DNA of 64,000 nucleotides from an uncultured Acidobacteriota bacterium (GCA_963700145.1 OY969474.1:5024001-5088000); one strand, 5' to 3'. Positions 1,064 to 31,591 are shown, counted from the first letter of the stretch. A program made the numbers and translations. The notes: generated by a model from the sequence alone, not told the origin.

Positions 1064-1208
1064 CGCGGGAGTCCTCTCCGGAGGACGAAAAGCCGGTATC
1101 AGAGCTTGCTACCTCGGTCTCGAGCCTTGATACCTCCGTATCAGCCGCTGATACCCCTGGAGTTGCCCCGCTTTGGTGGACACCTCATCCTTCGGGAGAA
1201 AGGAGTCC

Positions 1209-1529
1209 ATGATGGGGAGTCACCGCGGCAAGCCCTACCCGGCGGAGTTTCGTCGGCGGATGGTTGAGTTGGTGCGGGCCGGGCGGACGGCCGAGGAGCT
1301 GAGTCGGGAGTTCGAGCCCTCGGCCGAGTCGATTCACGACTGGGCACGCCAAGCCGACCGGGACGAGGGCCGGCGCGACGACGGGCTGACGACGGCCGAG
1401 CGCGAGGAGCTGCGCCGGCTGCGGCGGGAGAATCGCCAGTTGCGTGAGGACCGGGAGATTCTGGCAAAAGCCGCGGCCTGGTTTGCTCGGGAGACCGAGT
1501 CGAGCCCACGGAAGGGTTCGGATTCGTGA
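1209..1529 (+). CDS. IS3 transposase OrfA (HTH + leucine zipper)
   Basis: RBS aaggag before ATG 1209; motifs YPAEFRRRMVELV and EELRRLRRENRQLREDREILAKAAAWF. AAAAG at 1466-1470 is a candidate -1 frameshift site, and the -1 frame is open into orfB. Confidence 0.92.
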   Translation: MMGSHRGKPYPAEFRRRMVELVRAGRTAEELSREFEPSAESIHDWARQADRDEGRRDDGLTTAEREELRRLRRENRQLREDREILAKAAAWFARETESSPRKGSDS

Positions 1530-2371
1530 GGGCGCACCAGGCCTGCTACAGGGTAGTGAGGATGTGCCGACTGCTGGGTGTCTCCTCCAGCGGGTATTAC
1601 GCCTGGTGTCGGCGTCAGGCCGGTGCGCGAGCCCGAGCCGACGCGGCGCTCGGCGCGCAGATCCGGGCGATCCACGCGCGGTCGTGGGGGACTTATGGGG
1701 CGCCCCGGATCCACGCCGAGCTGGCGGCGCAGGGCGTACGGGTGGGGCGCAAGCGTGTGGGGCGGCTGATGCGCGAGGCCGGGCTTGGGGGCGTCAGTCG
1801 GCGGAAGTGGCCCCGGACGACGGTGCGAGACGGCCAAGCCCGCCCGGCGCCGGATCTGGTCGGCCGTCACTTCACGGTCGACGCTCCGGATCGGCTCTGG
1901 GTGGCCGACATCACCTACATCCCGACCACGGCAGGGTTTCTGTACCTGGCCGTGGTCGTCGACGCCTGGAGTCGGCGCGTGGTGGGCTGGTCGATGGCGA
2001 CGCATCTGCAGACCGAGCTCGTGGTGGCGGCACTGGAGATGGCGCTTGGACAGCGGCGGCCGCAGGGCGTGATCCATCATTCCGACCAGGGGACGCAGTA
2101 CACCTCGTTGGCCTTCGGCCAGCGCTGCCGACGAGCCGGTGTGCGGCCGTCGATGGGGTCGGTCGGGGACTGCTACGACAACGCGCTGTGCGAGAGCTTC
2201 TTTGCCACGCTCGAGTGCGAGCTGCTCGACCGGCGGCGCTTCGGGACCCAGACCGAGGCCCGGATGGCGGTGTTCGAGTTCCTCGAGGGCTGGTACAACC
2301 CGCATCGCCGGCACTCGGCCCTGGGCTATCTCAGCCCGGCGGAATTCGAGCGCCGGCGACGGGCAGCCTGA
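1526..2371 (+). CDS. IS3 transposase OrfB (DDE integrase core)
   Basis: Motifs WVADITYI, HHSDQGTQY, DNALCESFF and YNPHRRHSALGYLSP. GTGA overlap with orfA. Confidence 0.95.
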   Translation: MRAHQACYRVVRMCRLLGVSSSGYYAWCRRQAGARARADAALGAQIRAIHARSWGTYGAPRIHAELAAQGVRVGRKRVGRLMREAGLGGVSRRKWPRTTVRDGQARPAPDLVGRHFTVDAPDRLWVADITYIPTTAGFLYLAVVVDAWSRRVVGWSMATHLQTELVVAALEMALGQRRPQGVIHHSDQGTQYTSLAFGQRCRRAGVRPSMGSVGDCYDNALCESFFATLECELLDRRRFGTQTEARMAVFEFLEGWYNPHRRHSALGYLSPAEFERRRRAA

Positions 2372-2574
2372 GATGCACGTCACTCCTGGCGTTTTCGTCG
2401 GATCGTGGGACGGGCAGCTGCCCGCCTCACGCAGGGGAGGAGACCCCAAACTTCAACTGTCCACCAAACCGGGGTAAGTCCAGTCCACCCCTGTATCAGC
2501 CGTCGATACCTCCGGATCGGGCGCTGCTACCGAGGTATCTGGCGCCGTTACCTAGGTATCGGGCGCCGCTCCCC

Positions 2575-4033
2575 GGGGTTGTCCCTCCCGCTGTTGAAAG
2601 AGCAATGAGGTGAAGGCGGCTCCTCGGCCCACCTGATCGAGAATCGGGTTGGTCGAATAACCGGCCCCGCCAGGGGGCCAAGGAGCCGTGATGAAGACGA
2701 GAGCAGAAAGGCGGGTGGTGTGGCAAGGGGGCCGTGCGGCGCGCATCAGCCACGGGCTACAAGCGCTGCTGCGGCCGATGGTCGAGGGCATCGAGGCCAG
2801 CCGCCAGGGGCTGCTGGAGCTGTTTCACGCCGCGGGCGTCGAGGCCCTGGGGCGGCAGCTCGCGGACGAGGTCGAGGCCGTCGTCGGTCCGAAGCGTCGG
2901 CGCAATCCGACCCGCGAGGCGTACCGCTGGGGCTCGACGGCGAGCGAGTTCGTGCTGGGTGGCCGCCAGGTGGCGCTGCCGCGACCGCGCGTCCGGCGAC
3001 GCGACGGTGGCGAGATGAGCTTGCCTTCGGTGCGCGCCTTTCAGGACGAAGATCCCTTCACGGAGCGGGTGATCGAGCAGGCGCTGGTCGGCGTCTCGTA
3101 GCGCCGCTACGGTCGGAGCTTGGAGCCGCTCGCAGAGTCGGTGCCGGAGCGCGCGACGAGCAAGAGTGCGGTCCAGCGCCGGCTGGTGGCGGGGACGCGT
3201 CGTCTGCTGGACGCGTGGCTGCGCCGAGACCTGTCGGACTTCCAGCCCCTGATCCTGATGATCGACGGGCTGGAGGTGGCCGGCCACACCCTGGTGGTGG
3301 CACTCGGCATCGCGCGCGACGGGACCAAGCGGGTGCTCGGCCTGCGTGAAGGCGCGACGGAGAACGCGGCGCTCTGTACCGGCCTGCTCCAGGAGCTGTT
3401 GGAGCGAGGCCTCGCGATGCCGCCGCGCTTCTTGGCGGTGCTCGACGGCGGCAAGGGGCTGCGCAAGGCCGTGCGCGCCGTCTTCGGGGACGCAACCCAC
3501 GTCCAGCGCTGCCAGCTCCACAAGCGCCGCAACGTCCGCGACCACCTGCCCAAGCAGCTCCAAGCCCGGGTCGACCGCCTGATGGTCGAGGCCTACCAGA
3601 GCGCTCGCTTCGACCTCGCCAAGCGTCGCCTCGAGCAGCTTGCCCGCTGGCTCGAGCACGCAGGCCACGCGGGCGCCGCGGGCAGCCTGCGCGAGGGCCT
3701 CGACGAGACCCTCACCGCCTTGCGGCTGAAGCTGCCCGACGCTCTGCGCCGGTTGCTCGCCTCGACCAACGCGATCGAGAACACGATCGGCTCGATCCGT
3801 ACGACGACGCGCAACGTCAAGCGCTGGCGCGGCGGCGACATGGTGCTGCGCTGGGTCGCCCTGGCGCTGTGTGACGCGGAGGCTGGCTTCCGGCGTGTCA
3901 AGGGACATCGGCACCTCGGGGCTCTCGAGCTCGCGCTCGCGGCGATCGAGGAACCGACGAACACCAAGGCCGTGGCATGATCAACCGAGCCGCTTTCCCT
4001 CTTTCGGCTTTCAACAGGGAACGGGGCATCCCC
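2575..4033 (+). mobile_element. IS256-family insertion sequence
   Basis: Long imperfect IRs: left ggggttgtccctcccgctgttgaaag...gcggctc; right gagccgc...ctttcaacagggaacggggcatcccc. No target duplication is visible. Confidence 0.88.
2688..3980 (+). pseudogene. IS256 (mutator-type) transposase interrupted by one in-frame TAG at 3099-3101
   Basis: ORFs 2688-3101 and 3120-3980 share a frame and read GVS*RRY across the stop. Motifs LMIDG, LDGGKGLRKAV, QRCQLHK and STNAIEN. Confidence 0.88.
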
Positions 4034-4182
4034 CAGAGGCGCCGCGCGTTCGATCAGGCGCGCGATATCCGGAGGGAGGTTCTCGAAGCTGGTCACCCTC
4101 TTTCATTGTACTTCGAGACTCCGCTGGGCTTGGTATTGAGGGAGCGGCCGCTGCCCGGCACTATGAACGCCTTCAGCCGAAG

Positions 4183-5862: not shown

Positions 5863-5921
5863 GTCGAGACCGGCGGACAGGGCGAGAGGACCGGCCGGGA
5901 TTGTACTACGGCCCGCGGCCG

Positions 5922-7106: not shown

Positions 7107-7119
7107 GGGGACGAGCGTA

Positions 7120-8592: not shown

Positions 8593-8603
8593 CGCGCGCG
8601 GCC

Positions 8604-8999
8604 TCAGACCTGGCGGCAGTGCGCCGTCAGCCAGCCGGCGAGCTCGGCTTCCGAGAGGCTTCCGCTCGCCAGCTCGGTCATCGTGCGGAACGTCTCCTGC
8701 TTAGGCGCGGCGAGCCGCAGGCCGTGCAGCTCGAGGAAGGTGAGCGCGGCGGCGAGGGCGATCCGCTTGTTGCCGTCGACGAAGCAGTGGTTGCGCGCCA
8801 GCCCGTAGGCGTAGCTCGCGGCGAGCTCGCAGAGGGTCGGCTCGCGCTCGCCGTAGGCGGCGAGGTTCTGCGGCCGGGCCAGCGTGGAGCGCAGGAGCCC
8901 GAGGTCACTCACCCCTTCCGCTCCGCCGTGCTCGGCGATCAACAGCCGATGGATGGCGAGGACCGTCTCCTCGAGGAGCCATTCCGGCTCCGGCGTCAC
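8604..8999 (-). CDS. doc: Doc/Fic family type II toxin (death-on-curing)
   Basis: Doc motif NHCFVDGNKR. GTGA-coupled to the upstream antitoxin. Confidence 0.93.
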   Translation of the reverse strand: MTPEPEWLLEETVLAIHRLLIAEHGGAEGVSDLGLLRSTLARPQNLAAYGEREPTLCELAASYAYGLARNHCFVDGNKRIALAAALTFLELHGLRLAAPKQETFRTMTELASGSLSEAELAGWLTAHCRQV

Positions 9000-9220
9000 C
9001 GCGCCAGCTCACGCAGCACGTCCCGCTGGTCCTTGAGCACCCGCTCGGCCGCCCGGACCTGCCGGACGAAGGCCTCGTCGTACGGCGTGAGGGAGTAGCC
9101 GTCCGGGGTCTCCACCAAGTAAAGCACGTCCCCCTTCTGCACCTTGAGCCGCGCCATGACCTCCTTCGGCAGCACGACGCCCGCGGAGTTCCCGACCGTG
9201 GTGATCTTGAGCTCGACCAT
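8996..9220 (-). CDS. AbrB/MazE-family antitoxin
   Basis: KITTVGNSAGVVLPKE swapped-hairpin motif; 74 aa; lies upstream of doc. Confidence 0.92.
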   Translation of the reverse strand: MVELKITTVGNSAGVVLPKEVMARLKVQKGDVLYLVETPDGYSLTPYDEAFVRQVRAAERVLKDQRDVLRELAR

Positions 9221-9241
9221 GGGGTTCTCTCCCTCGGGCCG

Positions 9242-9263: not shown

Positions 9264-9547
9264 GTGACGCGACCGAACCGGGGCAGGAAGCTTCCTCGCC
9301 AGCTCGGGAACCTTCCGTTCCACCCCCGGAGGCTTCCGCACCCCGCCAGGAAGCTTCCCGTTTGCCTCCGGAGGCTTCCGCATCCCGTCGGGAAGCTTCC
9401 GCTCCGCCTCCGGAAGCTTCCGGACCTCGCGGGGAAGCTTCCGTCCGCCTCCGGAAGCTTCCGCTTTACGTCCGGAAGCTTCCCCTTTGCCTCCGGTGGA
9501 GTTGCCCCGCTTTGGTGGACACCTCATCCTTCGGGAGAAAGGAGTCC

Positions 9548-9868
9548 ATGATGGGGAGTCACCGCGGCAAGCCCTACCCGGCGGAGTTTCGTCGGCGGAT
9601 GGTTGAGTTGGTGCGGGCCGGGCGGACGGCCGAGGAGCTGAGTCGGGAGTTCGAGCCCTCGGCCGAGTCGATTCGCGACTGGGCACGCCAAGCCGACCGG
9701 GACGAGGGCCGGCGCGACGACGGGCTGACGACGGCCGAGCGCGAGGAGCTGCGCCGGCTGCGGCGGGAGAATCGCCAGTTGCGTGAGGACCGGGAGATTC
9801 TGGCAAAAGCCGCGGCCTGGTTTGCTCGGGAGACCGAGTCGAGCCCACGGAAGGGTTCGGATTCGTGA
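9548..9868 (+). CDS. IS3 transposase OrfA
   Basis: Identical to 1209-1529 except SIRDW versus SIHDW. Confidence 0.92.
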   Translation: MMGSHRGKPYPAEFRRRMVELVRAGRTAEELSREFEPSAESIRDWARQADRDEGRRDDGLTTAEREELRRLRRENRQLREDREILAKAAAWFARETESSPRKGSDS

Positions 9869-10710
9869 GGGCGCACCAGGCCTGCTACAGGGTAGTGAGG
9901 ATGTGCCGACTGCTGGGTGTCTCCTCCAGCGGGTATTACGCCTGGTGTCGGCGTCAGGCCGGTGCGCGAGCCCGAGCCGACGCGGCGCTCGGCGCGCAGA
10001 TCCGGGCGATCCACGCGCGGTCGTGGGGGACTTATGGGGCGCCCCGGATCCACGCCGAGCTGGCGGCGCAGGGCGTACGGGTGGGGCGCAAGCGTGTGGG
10101 GCGGCTGATGCGCGAGGCCGGGCTTGGGGGCGTCAGTCGGCGGAAGTGGCCCCGGACGACGGTGCGAGACGGCCAAGCCCGCCCGGCGCCGGATCTGGTC
10201 GGCCGTCACTTCACGGTCGACGCTCCGGATCGGCTCTGGGTGGCCGACATCACCTACATCCCGACCACGGCAGGGTTTCTGTACCTGGCCGTGGTCGTCG
10301 ACGCCTGGAGTCGGCGCGTGGTGGGCTGGTCGATGGCGACGCATCTGCAGACCGAGCTCGTGGTGGCGGCACTGGAGATGGCGCTTGGACAGCGGCGGCC
10401 GCAGGGCGTGATCCATCATTCCGACCAGGGGACGCAGTACACCTCGTTGGCCTTCGGCCAGCGCTGCCGACGAGCCGGTGTGCGGCCGTCGATGGGGTCG
10501 GTCGGGGACTGCTACGACAACGCGCTGTGCGAGAGCTTCTTTGCCACGCTCGAGTGCGAGCTGCTCGACCGGCGGCGCTTCGGGACCCAGACCGAGGCCC
10601 GGATGGCGGTGTTCGAGTTCCTCGAGGGCTGGTACAACCCGCATCGCCGGCACTCGGCCCTGGGCTATCTCAGCCCGGCGGAATTCGAGCGCCGGCGACG
10701 GGCAGCCTGA
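9865..10710 (+). CDS. IS3 transposase OrfB
   Basis: Protein identical to 1526-2371. Confidence 0.95.
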   Translation: MRAHQACYRVVRMCRLLGVSSSGYYAWCRRQAGARARADAALGAQIRAIHARSWGTYGAPRIHAELAAQGVRVGRKRVGRLMREAGLGGVSRRKWPRTTVRDGQARPAPDLVGRHFTVDAPDRLWVADITYIPTTAGFLYLAVVVDAWSRRVVGWSMATHLQTELVVAALEMALGQRRPQGVIHHSDQGTQYTSLAFGQRCRRAGVRPSMGSVGDCYDNALCESFFATLECELLDRRRFGTQTEARMAVFEFLEGWYNPHRRHSALGYLSPAEFERRRRAA

Positions 10711-10927
10711 GATGCACGTCACTCCTGGCGTTTTCGTCGGATCGTGGGACGGGCAGCTGCCCGCCTCACGCAGGGGAGGAGACCCCAAACTTCAACTGTC
10801 CACCAAACCGGGGTAAGTCCACCGGAAGCTTCCGCCTCAGGTCCGGAAGCTTCCGCAGCCCCTCGGGAAGCTTCCTACGCGCCTCGGGAGGCTTCCGGGC
10901 CGCGCGGTCATAGCGAAGCGCGAGTAA

Positions 10928-10967
10928 TTGACGTGTCCAAGCATACGATTTAGCCTTCAGCGTATGC
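10928..10967 (+). promoter_or_regulatory. sigma70-type promoter and operator of vapBC
   Basis: TTGACG(10928-10933)-N17-TAGCCT(10951-10956). Inverted repeat gcatacg(10941-10947)/cgtatgc(10961-10967) brackets the -10 box and overlaps the ATG. Confidence 0.75.
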
Positions 10968-11170
10968 GCACGACCCTCGATCTCCCGGATGAGCTGCTGG
11001 AGGAGGCCCGGCGCCTGCTGGGCTTCAAGTCGAAGACCGATACCGTCGTCCTCTCGCTGCGCGAGCTGGTGCGCAAGCGGCGCGTCGAGGAGCTCAAAGA
11101 CCTCCTCGGCTCGATCGAGCTGGACATCGACGTGTCGGAGTCCCGCCGGCGGCCGCCGGGGAACGGATGA
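10964..11170 (+). CDS. vapB: VapB-family antitoxin
   Basis: MRTTLDLPDELLEEARRLLGFKSKTDTV (RHH-type); ATGA overlap with the PIN gene. Confidence 0.9.
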   Translation: MRTTLDLPDELLEEARRLLGFKSKTDTVVLSLRELVRKRRVEELKDLLGSIELDIDVSESRRRPPGNG

Positions 11171-11553
11171 TCTTCGTCGACACCTCGATCTGGGTCGAGG
11201 CGTTGCGCCGGGGAGAGTCGCCGGAGGCGCGGCACCTTTCCGCGCTCCTGGACGACGGGACCGTCGCGCTCGCCGTCCCCGTGCGTATCGAGATCCTGGC
11301 CGGCGCCTCGGCCCGAGACCGCGTGACATTGCGCCGCACCCTCTCGGCGCTGCCGCTCTTCCACCCCGCGGGGAGCACCTGGCGGCTCGTCGAGAGCTGG
11401 CTCGATCTTGCCTCCGCGGCGGGCGAGCGCTTCGGCTTCGCCGACCTCTTGATCGGCGCCATCGCCGCCGAGCAGGAAGGGGAGCTGTGGTCTCGCGACG
11501 CCGACTTCCAGCGCATGGCGCGGGTCGGCCTGGTGCGGCTGCACGCCGCCTGA
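11167..11553 (+). CDS. vapC: VapC PIN-domain toxin
   Basis: Motifs IFVDTSIW, EILAG, FADLLIGA and LWSRDADF. Confidence 0.93.
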   Translation: MIFVDTSIWVEALRRGESPEARHLSALLDDGTVALAVPVRIEILAGASARDRVTLRRTLSALPLFHPAGSTWRLVESWLDLASAAGERFGFADLLIGAIAAEQEGELWSRDADFQRMARVGLVRLHAA

Positions 11554-11967: not shown

Positions 11968-12112
11968 CGTATGCCTTGTGCCGAGATTCGGGGGAGCGGG
12001 GCGTCCAGTTGAGGCGACCAAACGCAAATGGTCTGCAGAAGGCGAAGGCGCATTCAAAGGTGGAATATCATACCTCCTCCACGAAACCTATCCGAGCACG
12101 CATGAGGCTACG

Positions 12113-13300
12113 ATGAAAATCCTGATGCTCAGCGCTGCCTATACAGGAAGTGCAGGAGGAGTTGCTCGTCATGTAGTGACCCTCGCTCGTGGGCTCGTAC
12201 GGCACAGGGACGTGAAGGTTCATGTGCTCGCTCTTGCAAAAGAAGGCGCGGAGGGGAAACGACAAAGGCGCGGCCGCCTCACCGAGTGGAAGTTGAAACG
12301 TGAGTTGGTGGAAGAGTTTTCGGGTCGGCGAGTCGTCTTCGGTCGGCTGTTTGAGCTGCTAGGGGGAGACTGGTTTAGCATCGAACCGGATGCGATTCAC
12401 GCTCACGACTTCGACTCAATGATTCTCGGAGTGATGTTACGGTGCGCTTACGGTTGCCCTCTCGTAATTACGGTGCACAGAGCGCCAACAGAATGGCGTA
12501 GCGGTCGGTTCAAGGAGAATGCTAAGGATTGCCTTCTGGAGCTCGTACGCTGCCAATCACTTGTTGATAGCATAGTGGTCCCAAGCGAAGCAAGCGCTCG
12601 AATTCTGCGTAGCCAAGGCTTCACGAACATCGATGTAATTCCTCATGCGATTGGGAAACACTTATTGTCACACCAGACACTGCCGGATCTATTGAGGGAG
12701 CGTGGTGTCCCTGAGGACCGACGACTCGTTTTCAGTCCTGTCCGCCCAGACGAGCACAAAGACCCGCAGATCGTCATCCGTGCAGCTGCGCGCGTTATCA
12801 GCTCATGGGCTGAAGGTGATAGGCCGTTATTCTTGCTGCTTGACGACCTACAGAATGCATCGTTGAGCCAGGAGTTGCGTGCGGTCGCAAGCAGCTGGGG
12901 GCTTGTTGAAGGTCAAGACATCGTATTTACCCGGCCATTTGCTTATGGAGGCGAGCTTGCGACGGTTCTGCGTAGGTCGGAATTAATCGTAATCCCATCG
13001 GTACGTGAGTCGTTTGGTCAGAGTGTCTTAGATGCATTCATGTTCGCCAAGCCGGTGACCGCTCGAAACAGCATGGCTCTAAGCGAGCTAGTTCGCCATG
13101 GGGAGAATGGCCTGCTTTTCAGTACGTACGAGGAGTTGGCTGCGACGATTCGCAGGCTCCTGCTTGATGGTCACTTGGCAAGCCGACTGGGACAAGCGGG
13201 AAGAGAGGATAACGAGAGCCGCTTTAGGTTAGATGAGATGGTGGCCCGTTACCGCGAGCTTTATGGCCGGCTGCTTCGCGGCGGTGTTCCGAGGACATGA
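12113..13300 (+). CDS. glycosyltransferase family 4 (GT-B), in a lower-GC islet
   Basis: MKILMLS...GGVARHV, IHAHD, IPSVRESFGQSVLDA and ELVRHGENGLL. Many A/T-ending codons, unlike the flanking genes. Confidence 0.88.
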   Translation: MKILMLSAAYTGSAGGVARHVVTLARGLVRHRDVKVHVLALAKEGAEGKRQRRGRLTEWKLKRELVEEFSGRRVVFGRLFELLGGDWFSIEPDAIHAHDFDSMILGVMLRCAYGCPLVITVHRAPTEWRSGRFKENAKDCLLELVRCQSLVDSIVVPSEASARILRSQGFTNIDVIPHAIGKHLLSHQTLPDLLRERGVPEDRRLVFSPVRPDEHKDPQIVIRAAARVISSWAEGDRPLFLLLDDLQNASLSQELRAVASSWGLVEGQDIVFTRPFAYGGELATVLRRSELIVIPSVRESFGQSVLDAFMFAKPVTARNSMALSELVRHGENGLLFSTYEELAATIRRLLLDGHLASRLGQAGREDNESRFRLDEMVARYRELYGRLLRGGVPRT

Positions 13301-13323
13301 AAAAAGGCCGCTTTCCGCGGCCT
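13300..13323 (-). terminator. intrinsic terminator (minus strand)
   Basis: Minus strand reads aggccgc-ggaaa-gcggcct-ttttt. Confidence 0.8.
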
Positions 13324-13373
13324 CCGTTCCAGAGTGGGTCTAGGAGAGGACACCACCCCGGAAACTTTACTGT
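13300..13373 (-). ncRNA. candidate ~72-nt small RNA with two hairpins
   Basis: Minus-strand promoter upstream. Hairpin ttccggggtgg...ccactctggaa with a CUCUCCU loop, followed by an intrinsic terminator. Confidence 0.6.
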
Positions 13374-13378
13374 GCGGA

Positions 13379-13407
13379 AGTGTAGCGCAGGGCCGGCGCC
13401 TAGTCAA
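13379..13407 (-). promoter_or_regulatory. sigma70-type promoter of the sRNA candidate
   Basis: TTGACT(13407-13402)-N17-TACACT(13384-13379). Confidence 0.7.
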
Positions 13408-13490
13408 ATCCTGCCAGGGAAGGTATGGCGAGGGTCGGAGGCGCTCGGGCGTGCGCTCCTGAAGGTTCTGCCCGCGTTTGGTTTGTCCCG

Positions 13491-25083: not shown

Positions 25084-25128
25084 CCGGATTGCAGCGCTTT
25101 CGCTCTCAGGAGGGGGAGAAAGGCCGCA

Positions 25129-25530
25129 ATGTATCCGCTCGAGGCCTCGCTCTCCTACACGCTGCCCGTGATCGCCCCCCAATCCGCTCCACCGGAACCC
25201 CCGGCCTTCGAGGAGGGGGACACGGTGATCGTCGGCCCCGAAGGGGTCCGCTTCGTCGCGCGCTCGGCGCCCGACGAGGGGCGGCCCGCCGGCGCCATCG
25301 CCCGCCAAAACGGCCGGAACGGCAAGCCGCTCGAGCTCCAGTGCCTCTACTGCGGCGGCCTGCTCCGCCGCGGTCAGGCGCCGGTGCGCGTCGTCCGCGA
25401 GGGCTACCGGCTGGAGTGCTCGCTCCCCGCCTGGGTCTGCAAGCGCTGCGACGAGCCCTACTTCGAGCCGCCCGAGGTGGCGCGCGTGCGGGAAGCCCTG
25501 CGCTTCGTCCGCCGCCGCGCCCGAACCTGA
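25129..25530 (+). CDS. YgiT-type zinc-finger protein
   Basis: CLYC...[13 protein letters not shown]; purine-rich RBS upstream. The start is uncertain. Confidence 0.65.
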
Positions 25531-25534
25531 CCGC

Positions 25535-27355
25535 TTGCCCCTCCACGACGATCTAGCGGAGCCCGTCACCGGGCTCCGCAACCTCGCGATCATCGCCCAC
25601 GTCGACCACGGGAAGACCACCCTGGTCGACGCGATGCTCTGGCAGAGCGGCGTCTTCCGCGCCAACGAGTCGGTTGCCGAGCGGGTCATGGACTCGATCG
25701 ACCTCGAGCGCGAGAAGGGGATCACGATCATGGCCAAGAACACGGCCGTGATCTACCACGGCACCCGCATCAACATCGTCGACACGCCGGGGCACGCCGA
25801 CTTCGGCGGCGAGGTGGAGCGGACGCTCAAGATGGTGGACGGCGTCCTGCTCCTGGTCGACGCCAGCGAGGGGCCGCTGCCGCAGACCCGCTTCGTGCTG
25901 CGCAAGGCGCTGGAGGCGCGGCTGGCGCCGATCGTGGTGATCAACAAGATCGACCGCCCCGACGCCCGTCCGGCCGAGGTGCTCGACGAGATCTACGACC
26001 TCTTCATCGACCTCGACGCCGCCGAGGAGCTGCTCGACTTCCCGGTGCTCTACGCCAACGCCCGCGCCGGCACCTGCCGCCGCACGCCGGACGGCCCGGA
26101 CGAGCTCTTGGTGCCGCTCTTCGAGGAGATCCTGCGCACCGTGCCGCCGCCGCGCTTCGACCCGGCGGCGCCGCTGCAGATGCTGGTCACCACCCTCGAC
26201 TACGACGACTACGTCGGGCGGCTGGCGATCGGGCGGATGGTCAACGGCCGCCTCCGCCGCGGCCAGCCGATCGTCCTCTGCCGGCTGGACGGCACGACCG
26301 CCGCCGCCAAGGCGGCGATCCTCTACGGCTGGGACGGGCTCACGCGCGTCGAGATCGAGGAGGCCGGACCGGGCGACATCCTCGCCCTCGCCGGCCTGGC
26401 CGAGGTGTCGATCGGCGAGACCGTGGCCGATCCCGAGGACCCGCGGCCGCTGCCGACGATCCAGGTCGACGAGCCGACGATCGCCATGGTCTTCTCGGCC
26501 AACGACTCGCCGTTCTCGGGGCGCGACGGCAGGCACGTCACTTCGCGCAAGCTAAGGGAGCGGCTGGACAAGGAGACCCTGACCAACGTCTCCATCCGCG
26601 TCGAGCCCACCGGCTCGCCCGACGCCTTCCAGGTCTCCGGCCGCGGCGAGCTGCAGCTCGCGATCCTCATCGAGATGATGCGGCGCGAGGGCTACGAGCT
26701 GGCGGTGGGGAAGCCCGAGGCGCTCACCCGCCGCGTGGACGGCAAGCTCCTCGAGCCGATGGAGATGCTGACCGTCGACTGCCCGGAGGAGTTCATCGGC
26801 GCCGTCACCCAGCAGATGGGGGGGCGGCGCGGGCGGATGATGAAGATGGTCAACCACGGCTCGGGCCGCGTGCGCATGGAGTTCCGCGTCCCTTCGCGCG
26901 GCCTGATCGGCTTCCGCGGCGAGCTCCTCACCGACACCAAGGGCACCGGCATCATGAACCACCTCTTCGACGGCTGGGAGGAGTGGCAGGGGGAGATCGC
27001 CGGCCGCGAGACCGGCGCCCTGGTCGCCGACCGCGCCGGCCGCACCACCGCCTACGCCATCGAGCACCTGCAGCCGCGCGGCACGCTCTTCGTGGCACCG
27101 GGCGACGAGGTCTACGCCGGCATGGTCGTCGGCGAGCACAACCGCGAGAACGACCTCGACGTCAACATCGTGCGCGAGAAGAAGCTCACCAACATGCGCG
27201 CCTCGGGATCCGAGGAGCTGGTGCGGCTGGTGCCGCCGCGGCTCTTCAATCTGGAGCAGGCGCTCGAGTTCCTGCGCGACGACGAGCTGGTCGAAGCCAC
27301 GCCCGGCAGCCTCCGCCTGCGCAAGCGGGCATTGGCTGCAAACCTGCGCAAATAG
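25535..27355 (+). CDS. typA: translational GTPase TypA/BipA
   Basis: [39 protein letters not shown] and KKLTNMRA. Confidence 0.97.
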
Positions 27356-27371
27356 CTTTAACCCCACAAAC

Positions 27372-27387
27372 TGGCCTGGGGCTTGCA
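27372..27387 (+). promoter_or_regulatory. sigma54-type -24/-12 promoter
   Basis: tGGcctggggcttGCa = GG-N10-GC with TTGCA. Confidence 0.55.
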
Positions 27388-27513
27388 GAAATGGCCCTTC
27401 CGCCGGCGGCGCGGCCGCTCGTACGACCCCATCGCGGGGTCACCGCGCATCCGGCCCAACGGCGGGAGGGTGTGCTTCCCTCCCTGGACGAAGCGACTTC
27501 GGAGGTTTGTGTC

Positions 27514-28071
27514 ATGAGAAAGCACCTGTGGCTCTTCGCGCTCGTCGCGCTGCTCGCCGCGAGCCCCGCTGCGGCGGACAACAGCTTCGGTCTGTTCGGG
27601 ACCTTCTACGACACCGAGGACGTGGACTCTTCGGCGGGCGGCGGCATCCGCACCCGCCTGGGCTGGTTCGACCTGCGCGCCTCGTTCCTGAACGACCTCA
27701 CCCGCGACACCTCGCCCGAGCGGCTGGACTTCGAGCTCCAGGCCGTGCCGCTCGAGGCCGGCGTGGCGTTCAGCTTCATGGAGAACGGCTCCTGGTCGCC
27801 CTACGCGGGCGGCGGCTTCTCGTACATGATGCTCGACAGCGACGAGGTCGAGATCGACGACGAGGCCGGCTTCTATGCCGTGCTGGGCAGCGACTTCGGC
27901 ATGCGCGACAACCTCAACTTCATGGTCGAGGCGATCTACCGCAACATGGAGGCGACGGTGGACCGCGACCCGCGGAACCTGAGCGGGGTCGACGACATCA
28001 CCCTCGAGGAGGAGTCGACGGTCGAGCTGGGCGGCCTCGGCGTCAACGCCGGGCTCTCCTGGCGGTTCTAG
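27514..28071 (+). CDS. small outer-membrane beta-barrel protein (OmpW/porin-like)
   Basis: RBS ggagg, signal peptide, SPYAGGG, and C-terminal GVNAGLSWRF. Confidence 0.85.
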   Translation: MRKHLWLFALVALLAASPAAADNSFGLFGTFYDTEDVDSSAGGGIRTRLGWFDLRASFLNDLTRDTSPERLDFELQAVPLEAGVAFSFMENGSWSPYAGGGFSYMMLDSDEVEIDDEAGFYAVLGSDFGMRDNLNFMVEAIYRNMEATVDRDPRNLSGVDDITLEEESTVELGGLGVNAGLSWRF

Positions 28072-28092
28072 TCTCCCCCCTCGACACCCGTA

Positions 28093-28125
28093 GCGCCCGG
28101 CCTACGTGCCGGGCGTTTTTCTTTT
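28093..28125 (+). terminator. intrinsic terminator
   Basis: gcgcccggc-ctacgt-gccgggcgt followed by ttttctttt. Confidence 0.8.
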
Positions 28126-29716
28126 AATCGTAGATCCCGTCGGCGAACCAGTCGCCGCTCCGCCGGTCGCGGAAGATGCGCACCATCCCCCCTTCGCCCA
28201 GCTCGACGTCCCAGTAGTCGCGCTCGACCGGCGTCTCCCCCCACCAGCCGTCCTCCAGCCCCCAGGGCCCGGCGGCCGCGCGCACGCTGCCCTGGAGCTT
28301 CGGCCGCGCCGCGCCGCCGTTCGACACGACCGGCCGGATCTCGCGCGGGCGGAGGAGGGCGGCGGAGATCGCGCCGTCTCTATCGGATGCCGCCTCGCCG
28401 GCGGCGGAATCCTCGGTGATCACCTCCAGCTCGACCGGCGGCCGCAGCACCCGCACCGCCAGGAGACCGCGCCCCTGCGGCGGCTCGCGCCGCACCTCGG
28501 GGGGCGGCGGCGGCGCGTAGCCGACCAAAGCGCAGCGCTCGGGGAGATGGCCGTCCACCGGCTCGGGCGAGCCGACCCGGCCCGGGCCGAGGAGGGCGAA
28601 GAGCCGTCCCAGCGTCGTCGCCAGCTTGTCCGGCGAGAGCGCCGCCGGGCCGAAGAGGGAGAGCTGCGCCTCGCGCGGCCGGTCGGGGAGGGCGAGGAAG
28701 CCGAAGCCGACGACCGCCGCGCCCGGCGGCCGGGCCTCCAGCTCCAGGCGGACGAGCGTCAGCAGCGTCTTGGGGTCGCGCGTCGGCGCCGGCAGGTCGA
28801 GCGAGCGCTCGTGCCAGCCGTCGGGATCGAGGTGGAGCGCCACGGTCAGGCGGATGCAGGCCAGGCCGCGCACCTCCAGCCGCCGGCAGAGCCGCTCGAG
28901 CGCCGCCCGCCCGAGGAAGAGGAAGGGCTCGAGCGAGACAAGCGGCCACTCGAGGGTCATCCGCTCCTCGAAGGCCGGCGGCGGCTCGCGCGGAGTGAGC
29001 GGCCGCGGATCGACGCCCAGCGCCGTCGCGTGGAGGTCGCGTCCGGCGCGCCCCAGGCGGCTCGCCACCCGCGCGCCGGGGAGGCGGGCGAAGTCGCCGA
29101 TCGAGCGCAGCCCCCAGCGCTCCAGGGTGGCGGCGATCTCGGCCTCCGGGCTGAGGCGGGCGAGCGGCAGCGGCGCCAGGAAGGCGGCCTCCTCGCCGGC
29201 GGGGACGACGGTGGGGGAGCCGGGCAGGCCGGCGGCGATCCGCGCCGCCAGCTTGCTGCCGGCGATGCCGACGCGGGCCGGCAGGCCGACCGCCTGGGCG
29301 GCGGCGGCGAGCGCCCGGCCCAGCGCCTCCTCGCCGGCGCGCCCGGCGCCGAAGCGGCGCTCCAGTCCCATGAGGTCGACGTAGGCCACACCGTCGCCGG
29401 CGTCCTCGATGCGCGGCGAGAAGCGCTCGGCGGCCTCGAGCAGCGCCTCCTGCGCCGAGCGCTCGAGCTCCTCGTCGCGCGGCCGCGGCACCAGGTTGGG
29501 GCAGAGGGCGCGCGCCTGCGGCAGGGTCTGCCCGGGCACGATGCCGGCGTCGCGCGCCGAGCGGGTGGCGGCGGTCACCTCCGCGACCTGGCCGTTCCCC
29601 TCGACCACCACCAGCGCCTCGCGCGCCAGCCCCGGCTCGCTGCGCAGCCGCGCCGCGAGCGGAAAGAGCGGCACCGCGAGGCAGGCAAGGCGCGGCGGCG
29701 GGGCGTCGGGCTCCAT
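28124..29716 (-). CDS. imuB: ImuB-like Y-family DNA polymerase homolog
   Basis: ACLAVPLFPL, AERFSPRIE, FLAPLPLARL, QLSLF clamp-binding motif, GPWGLEDGWW, RDYWDV and WFADGIYD. Confidence 0.9.
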   Translation of the reverse strand: MEPDAPPPRLACLAVPLFPLAARLRSEPGLAREALVVVEGNGQVAEVTAATRSARDAGIVPGQTLPQARALCPNLVPRPRDEELERSAQEALLEAAERFSPRIEDAGDGVAYVDLMGLERRFGAGRAGEEALGRALAAAAQAVGLPARVGIAGSKLAARIAAGLPGSPTVVPAGEEAAFLAPLPLARLSPEAEIAATLERWGLRSIGDFARLPGARVASRLGRAGRDLHATALGVDPRPLTPREPPPAFEERMTLEWPLVSLEPFLFLGRAALERLCRRLEVRGLACIRLTVALHLDPDGWHERSLDLPAPTRDPKTLLTLVRLELEARPPGAAVVGFGFLALPDRPREAQLSLFGPAALSPDKLATTLGRLFALLGPGRVGSPEPVDGHLPERCALVGYAPPPPPEVRREPPQGRGLLAVRVLRPPVELEVITEDSAAGEAASDRDGAISAALLRPREIRPVVSNGGAARPKLQGSVRAAAGPWGLEDGWWGETPVERDYWDVELGEGGMVRIFRDRRSGDWFADGIYD

Positions 29717-29719
29717 CGC

Positions 29720-30550
29720 CTACCTCCGCCCGCCCATCGCCGCACGGCGCCGCTCGCCGATGACGTCGCGCTCGTCATCCTGAGCGAAGCGAAGGATCTG
29801 GGCGGGGGGGGCTGCCATCTTCGCGTTAGCGATCGACTCGATCGCCTCGCCCACCCGCAACCCGATCCTCTCCCGCCGCCCCGCCGGGTTCGTCCCGCGC
29901 AGCTTCTCGAGCGCCGCCTCGCCGGCGACGCCGCCGAGGAGCGCCGTCGCCCCTGCGCCGCGCCAGACGCCGCGCCCGCGCTCCAGGCGCAGGACGGCGG
30001 CGGCCGCCGTGCCGCTCACCCGGTAGGGCGTGGAGACCAGGAGCGTCCCGCCGTGCGTCTCGGCGGCGCGCGCCAGCCGCACCCAGAAGGGCTCGGCGCC
30101 GCGGCCGCCGCGCAGCGGCGGCACGCCCAGGTCGAGCGCCACCAGCGCGAAGCCGCCGGTCACCGCCATCTCGGCCGCCGCCAGCGCGTCGGCGGTGCGC
30201 TCCGGGCGCAGCCAGAGGAGACGCGGCAGCTCCACGCCGGCCGCCGCCGCGGCCTGCGGATCGAGCTGGTCGCCGAGGTCGACGAGCGCCGCCGCCTCGC
30301 CGGCCGCGGTGGCGGCGGCGAGGGTGGCGAGGAGGAGCGAGAAGCGCCCGCCGCTCCTGCCGCCGAGGAGCTCGACCAGCCGCCCGCGCGGCAACCCGCC
30401 GCCGAGCAGGCGGTCGAGCGCCGGCACCGCGGTCGGCAGCGGCGACGCCTCCCCGGCCTCCCGCCGCGCCTGCACCAGCTCCGCCGCGCTGCGCAGCGCC
30501 CCGCGCGGGAAATCGACCAGGCTCAGCGGTTTCCGCAGCGGCTCGCTCAT
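29720..30550 (-). CDS. imuA: ImuA/RecA-like protein
   Basis: LPTAVPALDRLLGGGLPRGRLVEL with a degenerate Walker A, AALVD and LDPQAAAAAGVEL; lies upstream of imuB. Confidence 0.82.
   Translation of the reverse strand: MSEPLRKPLSLVDFPRGALRSAAELVQARREAGEASPLPTAVPALDRLLGGGLPRGRLVELLGGRSGGRFSLLLATLAAATAAGEAAALVDLGDQLDPQAAAAAGVELPRLLWLRPERTADALAAAEMAVTGGFALVALDLGVPPLRGGRGAEPFWVRLARAAETHGGTLLVSTPYRVSGTAAAAVLRLERGRGVWRGAGATALLGGVAGEAALEKLRGTNPAGRRERIGLRVGEAIESIANAKMAAPPAQILRFAQDDERDVIGERRRAAMGGRR
29773..29809. repeat. single REP-like element, in frame within the imuA 3' end
   Basis: cgtcatcctgagcgaagcgaaggatctgggcgggg. Confidence 0.88.
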
Positions 30551-30556
30551 CGCTCC

Positions 30557-30600
30557 TCCCGCGATCAAGATAGGGCGGTGAAGAAGCGTAAGTCAATGCC
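30557..30600 (-). promoter_or_regulatory. sigma70-type promoter of imuAB
   Basis: Minus strand TTGACT-N18-TATCTT, then RBS ggagga before the ATG. Confidence 0.55.
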
Positions 30601-30695
30601 GGAGAAACGCGACTAACTTGCTGACTCCCAAGCTTTTCTACGGGAAACGGGAACAAGTGCGGGCGGAGCGCAACCGCCGCTACAATCCCGCTTCC

Positions 30696-31328
30696 ATGAA
30701 CCTCGCCGACCTGCGCCGCGAGTTCGAGGGCCACGGCCTCGAGGCCGGCGACCTCGCGGCCGACCCGGTCGAGCAGTTCCGCGTCTGGTTCGAGCAGGCG
30801 GCGGCGGCCGGGGTGCCCGACGTCACGGCGATGACCCTGGCGACCGCCGACGCCCGCGGGCGTCCTTCGGCGCGCGTCGTCCTGCTCAAGGGCTACGACG
30901 CGCGCGGCTTCGTCTTCTTCACCAACTACGAGAGCCGCAAGGCGCGCGAGCTGGCCGAAAACCCCGAGGCCGCGCTGGTCTTCTACTGGGGGCCGCTCAA
31001 CCGGCAGGTGCGGATCGCCGGCGGCGCCGAGCGCACGACGCGCGCGGAGTCGGAGGCCTACTTCGCCACGCGCCCGCTCGGCGCCCGCCTCGGCGCCTGG
31101 GTCTCGCGGCAGAGCCGGCCGCTCGCCGGCCGCGAGGAGCTGGAGCGCGAGTTCCTGGCCCTCGCCGAGAAGCTCGGCGACGAGGTGCCGCTCCCGGACT
31201 GGTGGGGCGGGTTCCGCGTGACGCCGCGCGAGGTCGAGTTCTGGCAGGGCCGCCCCAGCCGCCTCCACGACCGCTTCCTCTACCGCCGCGCCGGCGACGG
31301 CTGGACGATCGACCGGCTGGCGCCCTGA
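30696..31328 (+). CDS. pdxH: pyridoxamine 5'-phosphate oxidase
   Basis: [23 protein letters not shown] and [13 protein letters not shown]. Confidence 0.96.
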
Positions 31329-31379
31329 CCGCCCGCCGGCGACGGGTCTCGGAGCGCGGCGAGGGATGCGGAGGCCGCC

Positions 31380-31591
31380 GTTACGGAGATCGAGCGCCCG
31401 TTACGGAGATTGCGCGCCCGTCACGGAGATGGAGCATCCATCTCGGAGATCGAGCGCCCATCTCCGAGATCGGGCGCCCATCTCGGTGACGGCGCTTCCG
31501 TCACGGTGACGCAGCCTCCCATCTCGGAGATCGCGCGCCGGTCACGGAGATCGCGCGCCGATTACGGAGATGGAGCTTCCATCTCCGAGAC
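31380..31591. repeat. 20-bp-period palindromic tandem array 3 (11 units, core ATCTCgGAGAT / GTCACgGTGAC)
   Basis: Units at 31380, 31400, 31420, 31440, 31460, 31480, 31500, 31521, 31541, 31561 and 31581, between convergent genes. Confidence 0.92.

What the first reader, a model, noticed from the sequence alone, without database searches (positions are those of the whole stretch)
1087..31591. Candidate undescribed element class: dispersed 20-21 bp periodic palindrome arrays with variable linkers
Seen: three intergenic arrays share one architecture (a 10-14 bp palindrome plus a short variable linker, repeating about every two helical turns) but have different cores: GATACCnnGGTATC, GGAAGCTTCC and ATCTCgGAGAT. 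Period is kept almost exactly while linkers diverge, unlike slippage-driven VNTRs, where neighbouring units are near-identical. Some sequence is shared between arrays: array 1 unit gttacctaggtatcgggcgcc resembles array 3 unit gttacggagatcgagcgccc, and array 3 linkers ggagcttcc/ggagcatcc resemble the array 2 core. No cas, HUH/RAYT or reverse-transcriptase gene is adjacent. Inference: phased protein-binding platforms, hairpin-chain RNAs, or products of a trans-acting repeat-generating enzyme.
Basis: partly seen in the sequence, partly recalled or inferred. Interest (0 to 1): 0.8.

Follow-up and report, generated by a model that had tools for sequence, protein, structure and literature searches.

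The report
Phased palindrome arrays tied to small protein
The three repeat arrays are real copies of a genome-wide class of about a hundred non-coding rows of 20/21-bp units that goes together with a multi-copy gene for a small uncharacterised protein in one family of soil Acidobacteriota, and they most likely act as docking rows on double-stranded DNA.

Summary
All three arrays exist. An uninterrupted copy in a sister genome shows the empty site.

They are not isolated. The genome holds 96 arrays of period 20/21 with 5 or more units, median 10.2 units. They fall into about 30 sequence families.

- Core positions are conserved within arrays and between strains. Linkers drift and whole units come and go.
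- Tests for RNA or hairpin selection were negative. No RAYT gene and no Rfam family was found.
- A 16-member family of small coiled-coil proteins with arginine-rich tails, of no known family, has an array directly upstream of every member (16 of 16).
- 57 further arrays, among them window arrays 1 and 2, belong to those 16 families.
- Protein similarity does not track array similarity.

Best reading: phased double-stranded-DNA docking rows of an array-plus-gene module, with the window copies as gene-less orphans.

No paper describing this was found. Earlier agents of this scan reported the same kind of element on other DNA.

The parts
1087..1157 (.). Array 1, left part: about 3 units of 21 bp built from GGTATC/GATACC half-sites
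   Evidence: Sequence read. Unit register checked by eye. Continues at 2488 after the IS.
1158..2482 (+). IS3-family insertion sequence, copy 1 (TGGAG...GTCCA ends; orfA 1209-1529, orfB 1526-2371), followed by a 5-bp repeat of its end (2483-2487)
   Evidence: Pfam HTH_Tnp_1 (1.3e-09) and rve (1.4e-26). Five copies at 99.9-100% identity in the genome. Flanks.
2488..2574 (.). Array 1, right part: about 4 units of 21 bp
   Evidence: TRF 2516-2570, period 21. Sequence. Nearest gene-linked family is the array upstream of the small gene at genome position 3387754 (similarity 0.76).
2575..4033 (+). IS256-family element abutting array 1; its transposase reading frame is broken in this copy (ORFs 2691-3101 and 3120-3980)
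   Evidence: Pfam Transposase_mut 1e-28. 21 copies in the genome, this one included, at 99.5-100% identity.
9286..9496 (.). Array 2, left part: 10 units of 21 bp, GGAAGCTTCC core plus C-rich linker
   Evidence: TRF 9286-9496, period 21, 10.1 copies, with 42- and 84-bp higher-order periods. Sequence.
9497..10821 (+). IS3-family insertion sequence, copy 2, flanked by a 4-bp target duplication CCGG (9493-9496 and 10822-10825)
   Evidence: The uninterrupted orthologous array in G004 shows the empty site ...cctCCGGaagc....
10822..10897 (.). Array 2, right part: about 4 units
   Evidence: TRF 10824-10897, period 21, 3.5 copies. Same family as the array upstream of the small gene at genome position 215618 (similarity 0.81).
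31378..31590 (.). Array 3: about 10 units of 20 bp; half-sites ATCTC/GTCAC/GTTAC and GAGAT/GTGAC around a central S, then a GC-rich 9-bp linker
   Evidence: TRF period 20, 9.6 copies. Sequence. The orthologs differ by whole units (G004 one fewer, G001 about two more) and G003 has no array.
31577..31616 (.). Conserved flank ('arm') at the right edge of array 3, holding a GC-rich inverted repeat
   Evidence: 92.5% identical over 40 nt, in inverted orientation, to the left flank of the array at genome position 2526997. Conserved in G004 and G001.
8607..9220 (-). Toxin-antitoxin pair left of array 2: MazE/AbrB-type antitoxin (8999-9220) and Fic/Doc toxin (8607-8999), transcribed away from the array
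   Evidence: Pfam MazE_antitoxin 1.6e-08 and Fic 8.3e-20.
10964..11553 (+). vapB-vapC pair right of array 2
   Evidence: Pfam VapB_antitoxin 2.1e-13 and PIN 8.9e-14.
30618..31328 (+). pdxH-like gene ending 50 bp before array 3. With the DUF3237 gene on the other strand (31640-32119) it forms a convergent pair around the array.
   Evidence: Pfam PNPOx_N 3.1e-28 and DUF3237 8.5e-09.

Best explanation
The arrays are the cis-acting half of a lineage-specific two-part module.

The module consists of a phased row of about ten 20/21-bp units followed by a gene. Each unit usually carries two inverted 5-8-bp half-sites, so that dyad axes fall one helical turn apart. The gene encodes a roughly 125-residue protein with a long coiled-coil-like helical hairpin and an arginine-rich, proline-rich tail. 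In intact modules the row lies between a promoter (or the preceding gene) and the ribosome-binding site of this small gene.

I infer the following.
- The protein, as a dimer or higher oligomer, docks along one face of the double helix, unit by unit.
- It thereby controls its own operon as a roadblock or operator array.
- Modules duplicate and disperse, and most copies then lose the gene.
- The three window arrays are such gene-less orphans. They are still constrained at core positions and may titrate the protein.

Arrays change length by gain and loss of whole units and are favoured landing sites for insertion sequences.

Shown: the anatomy, abundance, conservation pattern, strand symmetry, strict gene linkage and taxonomic co-restriction.

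Inferred: that the small protein is the binder, and what binding achieves.
For: 1. Abundance and a sharp period.
- 96 arrays of period 20/21 have 5 or more units.
- TRF rows with 3.5 or more copies: 125 at period 21 and 23 at period 20, against 1 each at 19 and 22.
- Median size is 10.2 units, and 64 of 96 arrays have 8-13 units.
- Few arrays have 2-6 units when cores are traced directly.

2. Constraint.
- 45 of 73 arrays have uneven conservation along the unit.
- In 5 orthologous G000/G004 pairs, substitutions are 28/483 at conserved phases, 32/221 at intermediate phases and 44/226 at variable phases.

3. Double-stranded rather than hairpin logic.
- G-T 167 against A-C 165 in the arms of 43 arrays. 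Only 1 of 24 arrays is strand-asymmetric.
- Watson-Crick pairs: 1938 observed against 1926.3 expected after shuffling arms.
- In the family of array 3, 14 symmetric units against 16.0 expected of 39.

4. Gene linkage.
- tblastn finds 13 paralogs of the small protein and a profile search 16.
- 16 of 16 have a 20/21-type array within 450 bp upstream.
- A Shine-Dalgarno sequence precedes each start by eye, and the gap from array to start is 0-166 bp.
- At one locus a promoter-like site (TTGACT-18-TAAAGT) lies 54 bp upstream of the array.

5. Families.
- Of 111 arrays, 13 are gene-linked, 57 orphans match one of the 16 gene-linked families at 0.76 or more, and 41 do not.
- Orphans of one family keep the module's flanks as far as the ribosome-binding site, or the first codons of the gene.

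6. Module swap.
- At one orthologous locus G004 carries another array family together with a diverged paralog.

7. Taxonomic range.
- The protein family was found in 4 of 4 sampled genomes of this bacterial family and in 0 of 147 other genomes of the class.
- Within the family it was found in 51 of 61 genomes, at 3-42 copies each.
- Arrays were seen in samples of four further genomes of the family, and at most one doubtful array outside it.
- In other genera, TRF finds an upstream array at 6 of 8 loci in G012, 2 of 7 in G008 and 0 of 7 in G006.

8. The protein model is confident (mean pLDDT 86.6): helix 6-21, a 60-residue helix 28-87, then a disordered basic tail. Two arginines are invariant.
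Against: - Protein similarity does not predict array similarity. Spearman is -0.147, and 1759 of 2000 permutations reach it. Paralogs 70-75% identical have arrays alike only at chance level.
- The protein has no recognised DNA-binding fold or family (Pfam, NCBIfam, PHROGs, PADLOC).
- The fold searches gave only generic helical matches.
- G006 has 7 gene copies and none of the 7 examined has an array upstream. So the gene does not need an array.
- 41 of 111 arrays fit no gene-linked family, and array 3 is just under the threshold at 0.75.
- 15 of 96 arrays have strand symmetry below 0.45, within the range of the random-segment control.
- Arrays lie in transcribed positions (leader or intercistronic), so an RNA role is not excluded.
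- IS insertions in arrays are tolerated.
- The core-versus-linker contrast between strains may be inflated by alignment of non-orthologous units. Without the worst-aligned pair it is 15/372 against 26/176 (from the per-pair counts).
- No binding, expression or oligomer data exist.
Confidence: 0.4

Rival explanations
1. Selfish or neutral satellite. The array-plus-gene module, or a larger cassette that carries it, is a proliferating mobile or duplicative element. The arrays are its rapidly turning-over repeat tract, expanded and homogenised by unequal recombination. They have no host function and no dedicated binder. Orphans are decay products.
For: - Whole-unit indels and presence/absence among congeners.
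- Higher-order 42/63/84-bp periods.
- Dispersed copies share flanks but lack terminal inverted repeats.
- There is no bias for promoter or terminator context: 42 tandem, 22 convergent and 22 divergent, against a background of 2134/669/669.
- IS elements sit in the arrays: 3 of 5 copies of the IS3 element, and 2 of 4 copies of a 1366-bp IS.
- Proteins and arrays do not covary.
- One locus carries different array families in two strains.
Against: - Position-specific conservation within arrays and between strains is not expected from neutral turnover.
- The size distribution peaks at 8-13 units with few short arrays, unlike a slippage equilibrium.
- The period is fixed at 20/21 across unrelated unit sequences.
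- No transposase, RAYT gene or other mobility gene belongs to the module.
Confidence: 0.25
2. Generic structural DNA element. The in-phase AT-richer cores make intrinsically bent or easily wrapped DNA. This DNA would be used by a general factor (a nucleoid protein, gyrase or the like), as proposed for REP/BIME clusters, independently of the small protein.
For: - The period equals two helical turns, with dyads about 10-10.5 bp apart.
- Arrays are less GC-rich than the genome: median 0.66 against 0.715.
- Arrays occur in every intergenic context.
- Many different core sequences share one geometry.
- IS elements of the IS3 and IS256 families target the arrays, as is described for REPs (PMC1525189, passages read).
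Against: - It does not explain why each array keeps its own specific core.
- It does not explain why 16 of 16 paralogs of one small gene have an array upstream.
- Curvature was not computed and no candidate factor was identified.
Confidence: 0.15
3. RNA element. The arrays are transcribed as leaders, intercistronic spacers or 3' tails. They would act as rows of short hairpins or single-stranded motifs that bind an RNA-binding protein, possibly the arginine-rich small protein, in the manner of CsrB-type sponges.
For: - In gene-linked loci the array lies between a promoter-like site or the preceding gene and the start codon.
- Many units can be drawn as a 5-7-bp stem with a 4-nt loop.
- Arginine-rich tails are common in RNA binders (my own knowledge, not from a call).
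Against: - There is no excess of G-U-compatible mismatches on either strand (167 against 165). In gene-linked arrays the counts are sense 12 and antisense 25.
- The arms do not covary, and half-sites are independent.
- No Rfam match falls on the arrays.
- Arrays lie in all orientations, also between convergent genes.
- A fixed 20/21 period across families has no obvious RNA reason.
Confidence: 0.08
4. Ordinary known repeats: REP/BIME elements moved by a RAYT transposase, miniature CRISPR-like arrays, or decayed heptad-repeat coding sequence.
For: The arrays are palindromic, intergenic, high in copy number and targeted by IS elements, like REPs. The 21-bp period equals seven codons.
Against: - No Y1 transposase was found in the genome, which is estimated 95.4% complete; the control found it in 6 of 14 genomes.
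- The variable part of a unit is only about 3-9 nt.
- Period-20 arrays cannot be coding.
- 80 of 96 arrays overlap called ORFs by less than 20% (a crude gene caller).
- Unit indels of 20 bp occur.
Confidence: 0.03

Closest known systems
Plasmid centromere and iteron arrays with the gene of their small binding protein next to them (parC-ParR of pSK41/R1, parH-ParG, sopC-SopB, P1 incA)
   Same: - Rows of roughly ten short units lie directly upstream of the operon of a small protein. [quoted passage not shown]
- sopC/OB sites are inverted repeats inside longer iterons, 'at a single locus or scattered across the genome' (same source).
- The 20-bp unit of pSK41 is recalled, not seen in a call.
   Different: - The elements here are chromosomal, with about 100 arrays and 16 paralogous genes per genome.
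- No ParA/ParM/TubZ-type partner was seen in the one full cassette scanned.
- The protein model shows neither a ribbon-helix-helix nor a helix-turn-helix.
- The protein family has no match in the plasmid or phage collections.
- Most arrays are orphans.
REP / BIME clusters of enterobacteria and pseudomonads
   Same: - Both are abundant intergenic palindromic units set regularly in alternating orientation.
- REPs are binding sites for general DNA proteins (abstract of PMC2817692, seen; passages of PMC1525189 read name DNA polymerase I, gyrase and IHF).
- REPs are targets of IS elements of the IS3, IS110, IS4, IS256 and IS5 families (passages of PMC1525189).
   Different: - No RAYT/Y1 transposase gene is present.
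- Units are 20/21 bp rather than about 35-40 bp REPs with variable linkers.
- There are dozens of unrelated core sequences in one genome.
- No hairpin signature was found.
- The arrays are tightly linked to a small non-transposase gene.
Slippage-type minisatellites (VNTRs, MIRUs)
   Same: Strains differ by whole units, and higher-order periods occur.
   Different: - Neighbouring units are only about 72% alike (median), with fixed cores and free linkers.
- Array size is peaked.
- The period is the same across unrelated sequences.
CsrB/RsmZ-type sponge RNAs
   Same: Both have about ten to twenty short repeated motifs at roughly 20-nt spacing. Several cores here contain GGA.
   Different: No Rfam hit on the arrays, no strand-specific signal, and many cores lack GGA.

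Membership tests
REP/BIME with RAYT | A Y1 HUH transposase (RAYT, Pfam Y1_Tnp) encoded in the genome | tested here: not met
   0 matches in the window's genome, which is estimated 95.4% complete. The same search found the family in 6 of 14 control genomes.
REP/BIME with RAYT | Units that form hairpins, with arms kept complementary | tested here: inconclusive
   - 43 arrays have arms of 5 or more.
- Watson-Crick pairs are 1938 against 1926.3 expected after shuffling arms.
- 98 of 179 double changes stay paired.
- G-T and A-C mismatches are equal.
REP/BIME with RAYT | Conserved GTAG or CGTC tetranucleotide at the REP 5' end (title and abstract of PMC3733652 seen) | not tested
   Not examined.
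Partition centromere or iteron with adjacent binding-protein gene | Tandem repeat row directly upstream of the gene of a small DNA-binding protein | tested here: inconclusive
   The position is met for 16 of 16 members of the small-protein family. That the protein binds DNA is not shown.
Partition centromere or iteron with adjacent binding-protein gene | Binding protein with a ribbon-helix-helix or helix-turn-helix fold | tested here: inconclusive
   The AlphaFold model has three helices and no strand. Foldseek gave no match at E of 0.001 or better. VIA-align gave only generic helical rows with Z under 7.
Partition centromere or iteron with adjacent binding-protein gene | Partner NTPase (ParA, ParM or TubZ) in the same operon | tested here: not met
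   The four proteins downstream of the small gene in the one full cassette scanned have no Pfam family above cut-off. Other loci have unrelated neighbours. Only one cassette was scanned.
Partition centromere or iteron with adjacent binding-protein gene | Located on a plasmid or phage replicon | tested here: not met
   The arrays lie on a single 5.46-Mb contig. The protein has no tblastn match in 72,556 plasmid or 50,697 phage records.
CRISPR | Repeats of 21 bp or more separated by unique spacers of similar length | tested here: not met
   The whole unit is 20/21 bp and the variable part about 3-9 nt. True CRISPR arrays of period 78-83 lie elsewhere in the genome. The repeat-length criterion is recalled.
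Slippage VNTR / minisatellite | Copy-number change by whole units between strains | tested here: met
   Indels of 20 or 21 bp in 4 of 5 orthologous pairs. G001 has about two more units at array 3.
Slippage VNTR / minisatellite | Neighbouring units near-identical, with divergence even along the unit | tested here: not met
   Median identity at one-period lag is 0.72. 45 of 73 arrays are uneven along the unit at p<0.01.
Heptad-repeat coding sequence | Array lies in a reading frame with a period that is a multiple of three | tested here: not met
   - 17 merged arrays have period 20.
- 80 of 96 arrays overlap GC3-called ORFs by less than 20%; 10 of 96 by more than 80%, and those were not examined further.
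- Array 3 lies between two stop codons.
Known RNA families (Rfam) | Match to a covariance model | tested here: not met
   In window 1-33000 at E of 1 or better there were two weak matches, neither on an array.

The most novel reading that the evidence does not exclude
A previously unrecognised protein-DNA system confined to one family of Thermoanaerobaculia. It would consist of a radiating family of small coiled-coil, arginine-tailed proteins (3-42 genes per genome). Each would be born with a private 'satellite' of phased 20/21-bp docking rows, which spread to about a hundred intergenic sites. That would be a bacterial counterpart of satellite DNA with dedicated binders. It could work in local chromosome organisation, in titration-based gene control, or as a new kind of selfish module that moves without a transposase of its own.
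Probability: 0.3. Interest if true: 0.9.

Novelty: new variant of a known kind. Interest (0 to 1): 0.72.

Why it matters
If the small proteins do dock on these rows, this lineage has a modular way of writing protein landing pads into intergenic DNA. It would use dozens of sequence variants that share one geometry.

That would bear on three questions:
- how sequence specificity and repeat architecture evolve together;
- how non-coding repeats are born and spread in bacteria without RAYT-type enzymes;
- why insertion sequences prefer such DNA.

It also gives a concrete, cheap experiment: 16 protein/array pairs from one genome. And it assigns a first context to a protein family of more than a thousand sequence clusters that has no annotation.

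For genome annotation, it explains about 30 kb of otherwise unexplained intergenic DNA per genome. It also flags array length as a strain marker.

Tried and rejected
- RNA evidence: no RNA holder was listed for window 27000-36000.
- Homodimer prediction for the small protein: the job was never queued, because the queue was full. There is no result of any kind.
- The search for related loci with the protein alignment failed because the alignment has no stretch conserved enough. The genome search was used instead.
- Fold searches gave nothing informative. The protein atlas gave only unnamed Acidobacteriota clusters.
- Restriction-site avoidance: only AAGCTT is concentrated in arrays (149 of 368 sites). 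Other 6-bp palindromes are not. Idea dropped.
- Clustering of all six-frame ORFs next to arrays was swamped by low-complexity off-frame ORFs. It gave no second array-linked gene family.
- Natural control in the genus without the protein family: 200 kb of G182 was scanned with the repeat finder. The same settings recovered only 2 of the 5 TRF arrays in the G015 positive control. TRF on one 20-kb piece showed only 4.4 x 20 bp and 3.3 x 21 bp repeats. Inconclusive. The second 200 kb that was fetched was not scanned.
That question stays open. The within-genome version was negative.
- Terminal inverted repeats or target duplications of whole array elements: none was evident in the seven-copy family. 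No clean filled/empty pair with exact borders was found.
- The 10 of 96 arrays that fall inside long called ORFs were not examined one by one.
- DNA curvature was not computed.

Full report
**The observation**

The window is 70-77% G+C and lies at 5,024,001-5,088,000 of a single 5.46-Mb contig. Earlier notes of this scan, and one database name, place the organism in the Thermoanaerobaculia, Acidobacteriota.

TRF finds period-21 arrays at 2516-2570, 9286-9496 and 10824-10897, and a period-20 array at 31383-31590. Reading the sequence shows that arrays 1 and 2 are each one array cut in two by the same 1325-bp element (1158-2482 and 9497-10821).

- The element encodes an HTH_Tnp_1 OrfA and an rve-domain OrfB, so it is an IS3-family insertion sequence.
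- In array 2 it is flanked by a CCGG duplication.
- The orthologous locus of congener G004 carries an uninterrupted GGAAGCTTCC array with the empty site.
- Array 1 also abuts an IS256-family element at 2575-4033.
- Array 2 lies between a mazE/doc pair and a vapBC pair. Array 3 lies between convergent pdxH and DUF3237 genes.

**A genome-wide class**

TRF on the whole genome gives 1930 rows, of which 554 have period 21. Among rows with 3.5 or more copies, period 21 has 125 and period 20 has 23, while periods 19 and 22 have one each.

- After merging there are 96 arrays of period 20/21 with 5 or more units. The median is 10.2 units, the interquartile range 8.85-11.7, and 64 of 96 arrays have 8-13 units.
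- When individual cores are traced with one mismatch allowed, chains of 2-6 sites are rare and chains of 7-13 common. The size distribution is therefore peaked, not geometric.
- A crude GC3-based gene caller puts 80 of 96 arrays outside ORFs and 10 inside. The latter were not checked one by one.
- Flanking-gene arrangement is 42 tandem, 22 convergent and 22 divergent, against a background of 2134/669/669. There is thus no preference for promoter or terminator settings.
- Arrays cover about 29.8 kb, or 0.55% of the genome.

**Anatomy**

Units usually hold two inverted half-sites of 5-8 bp. Dyad axes therefore recur every half period, that is every 10-10.5 bp. Strand symmetry is graded: 36 of 96 arrays reach 0.6 or more, and 15 of 96 are below 0.45. 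The 95th percentile of random segments is 0.46.

Within arrays some unit positions are nearly invariant and others free. 45 of 73 arrays are uneven at p<0.01. Arrays have a median of 66% G+C, against 71.5% for the genome.

**Dynamics**

- At array 3, G004 has one unit fewer, G001 about two more, and G003 none at all between the same two genes.
- In five G000/G004 orthologous pairs, four differ by one whole unit.
- Substitutions are 28/483 at conserved phases, 32/221 at intermediate phases and 44/226 at variable phases.
- Alignment of non-orthologous units could inflate this contrast. Without the worst-aligned pair it is 15/372 against 26/176.

**DNA or RNA?**

- In 43 arrays with arms of 5 or more, arm mismatches are G-T 167, A-C 165 and other 318. 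Only 1 of 24 testable arrays is strand-asymmetric.
- In arrays whose downstream gene gives an orientation, sense G-U is 12 and antisense 25.
- Watson-Crick pairing within units equals the expectation after shuffling arms among units: 1938 against 1926.3. However, 98 of 179 double changes remain paired.
- In the family of array 3 the two half-sites vary independently: 14 symmetric units against 16.0 expected of 39.
- No Rfam family matches the arrays.

Together this argues for recognition of half-sites on duplex DNA rather than selection for hairpins.

**What it is not**

No Y1/RAYT transposase is present; the control search found the family in 6 of 14 genomes. Period-20 arrays and 20-bp indels exclude coding heptads. 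True CRISPR arrays lie elsewhere in the genome.

**The gene link**

Flank comparison showed that seven arrays of one family (core GGATNTATCCGGA) share about 85 bp on one side and about 120 bp on the other. The longer flank ends in a ribosome-binding site. At one copy a 141-residue ORF follows.

- tblastn finds 13 paralogs of this ORF, and a profile search 16. Iteration converges at 16.
- Every one has a 20/21-type array within 450 bp upstream, 16 of 16.
- The gap from array to start codon is 0-166 bp, and a Shine-Dalgarno motif precedes each start by eye.
- At one locus a promoter-like site lies 54 bp upstream of the array, and two more look alike by eye. At five loci the array follows the stop of a small gene. 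In the one case scanned, that gene resembles pterin-4a-carbinolamine dehydratase below the curated cut-offs.
- The protein has no Pfam, NCBIfam, PADLOC or meaningful PHROG match.
- Its model is confident (pLDDT 86.6): helix 6-21, a 60-residue helix 28-87, a short helix, then a disordered basic and proline-rich tail.
- Fold searches are uninformative.
- The family has 1090 clusters at E of 0.001 or better among 1.84 billion representatives. The named ones are 'hypothetical protein'.

**Families and orphans**

- Consensus units cluster into about 30 families: 98 arrays, 13 singletons, and a shuffle 99th percentile of 0.62.
- Of 111 arrays, 13 are gene-linked, 57 orphans match one of the 16 gene-linked families at 0.76 or more, and 41 match none.
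- Window array 2 matches the family upstream of the gene at 215618 (0.81). Array 1 matches that at 3387754 (0.76). Array 3 is borderline (0.75).
- No member of the protein family lies in the window. All three window arrays are therefore orphans.
- Some orphans keep the module's flank as far as the ribosome-binding site or the first codons of the gene. This suggests descent from intact modules.
- At one orthologous locus G004 has a different array family together with a diverged paralog.

**Against a simple 'cognate binder' model**

Protein identity and array similarity are uncorrelated. Spearman is -0.147, and 1759 of 2000 permutations are at least as high. In G006, 0 of 7 genes have an upstream array. 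The figures are 6 of 8 in G012 and 2 of 7 in G008 by TRF, with one more degenerate array seen by eye in each.

**Range**

- In a sample of the class, the protein occurs in 4 of 4 genomes of this bacterial family and in 0 of 147 others.
- Within the family it occurs in 51 of 61 genomes and 10 of 11 genera, at 3-42 copies. One genus has 0 of 10 genomes positive.
- Array counts in samples:

| Genome | Arrays | Sample |
|---|---|---|
| G004 | about 13 | 400 kb |
| G015 | 5 | 200 kb |
| G010 | 3 | 200 kb |
| G006 | 1 | 400 kb |
| G025 (another family) | 1, possibly coding | 400 kb |

- A test in the genus that lacks the protein was inconclusive.

**Insertion sequences**

- Of five copies of the IS3 element, three lie inside arrays and one lies about 60 bp from the first recognisable unit of an array.
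- The binomial probability of three or more in arrays is 1.6e-6 on genome share. It is 9e-4 if arrays are taken as 4.6% of intergenic DNA, which is my assumption.
- A 1366-bp IS has 2 of 4 copies in array elements. One of these is the case an earlier agent reported.
- Of the 21 copies of the 1459-bp IS256-family element, TRF shows a 20/21-type repeat next to two: the window copy beside array 1, and one at 1826491 that lies between two short repeats. A third copy lies about 170 bp from an array.
- REPs are known targets of IS3 and IS256 elements (PMC1525189, passages read).

**Verdict**

The arrays are a real, abundant, lineage-specific repeat class coupled to a small-protein gene. The most likely reading is phased duplex-DNA docking rows of an array-plus-gene module, with the window copies as orphans (confidence 0.4). 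A selfish-satellite reading (0.25), a generic structural-DNA reading (0.15) and an RNA reading (0.08) remain open.

I found no paper on this. The supplements of the papers I cite were not consulted. Earlier agents of this scan reached similar readings on other genomes and elsewhere in this genome.

Noticed in passing
G000 positions 2032990-2036000, 3101201-3107400 (L130), 3387000-3393000 (L131) and three further loci: Downstream of the small gene, up to six loci share parts of a cassette of proteins of about 137, 315, 247 and 204 residues. These have no Pfam, PHROG, NCBIfam or PADLOC family. In the one case scanned the cassette is preceded by a pterin-4a-carbinolamine-dehydratase-like gene. 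In L130 a DUF6119 gene lies beside it.
   Followed up: partly
window 2575-4033: A 1459-bp IS256-family element with 21 near-identical copies in the genome. The window copy has a broken transposase frame. Two other copies sit inside the CRISPR region.
   Followed up: partly
G000 3948806-3950173 and 4650489-4651854: A different 1366-bp IS with 4 copies and what looks like an 8-bp duplication (by eye). Two copies are inserted in array elements, one of them inside the conserved flank of an array.
   Followed up: partly
G000 1078565-1088171: CRISPR arrays (period 78-83, about 37-nt repeat) interrupted by two IS copies.
   Followed up: no
window 32252-32295: A stretch of about 40 bp inside the 760-residue DUF6923-repeat gene. 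It matches at 82-100% identity at many places in many genomes of the order, far better than its surroundings. Unexplained.
   Followed up: no
window 32499-33376 and 46595-47329: Long tandem repeats, 303 bp x 2.9 and 384 bp x 1.9. The first lies within the DUF6923-repeat ORF 32132-34411 on the minus strand.
   Followed up: no
window 12001-14000: G+C drops to 59% against 70-77% around it. Possibly foreign DNA next to the toxin-antitoxin cluster.
   Followed up: no
G000 3499478-3500158 and 3583310-3583753: Two arrays of different families lie side by side in one intergenic region.
   Followed up: no
L133, L137, L141, L149 (G006): In the genus whose small genes lack arrays, the genes have promoter-like sites 150-250 bp upstream (by eye). 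Three of them share a conserved leader sequence.
   Followed up: no
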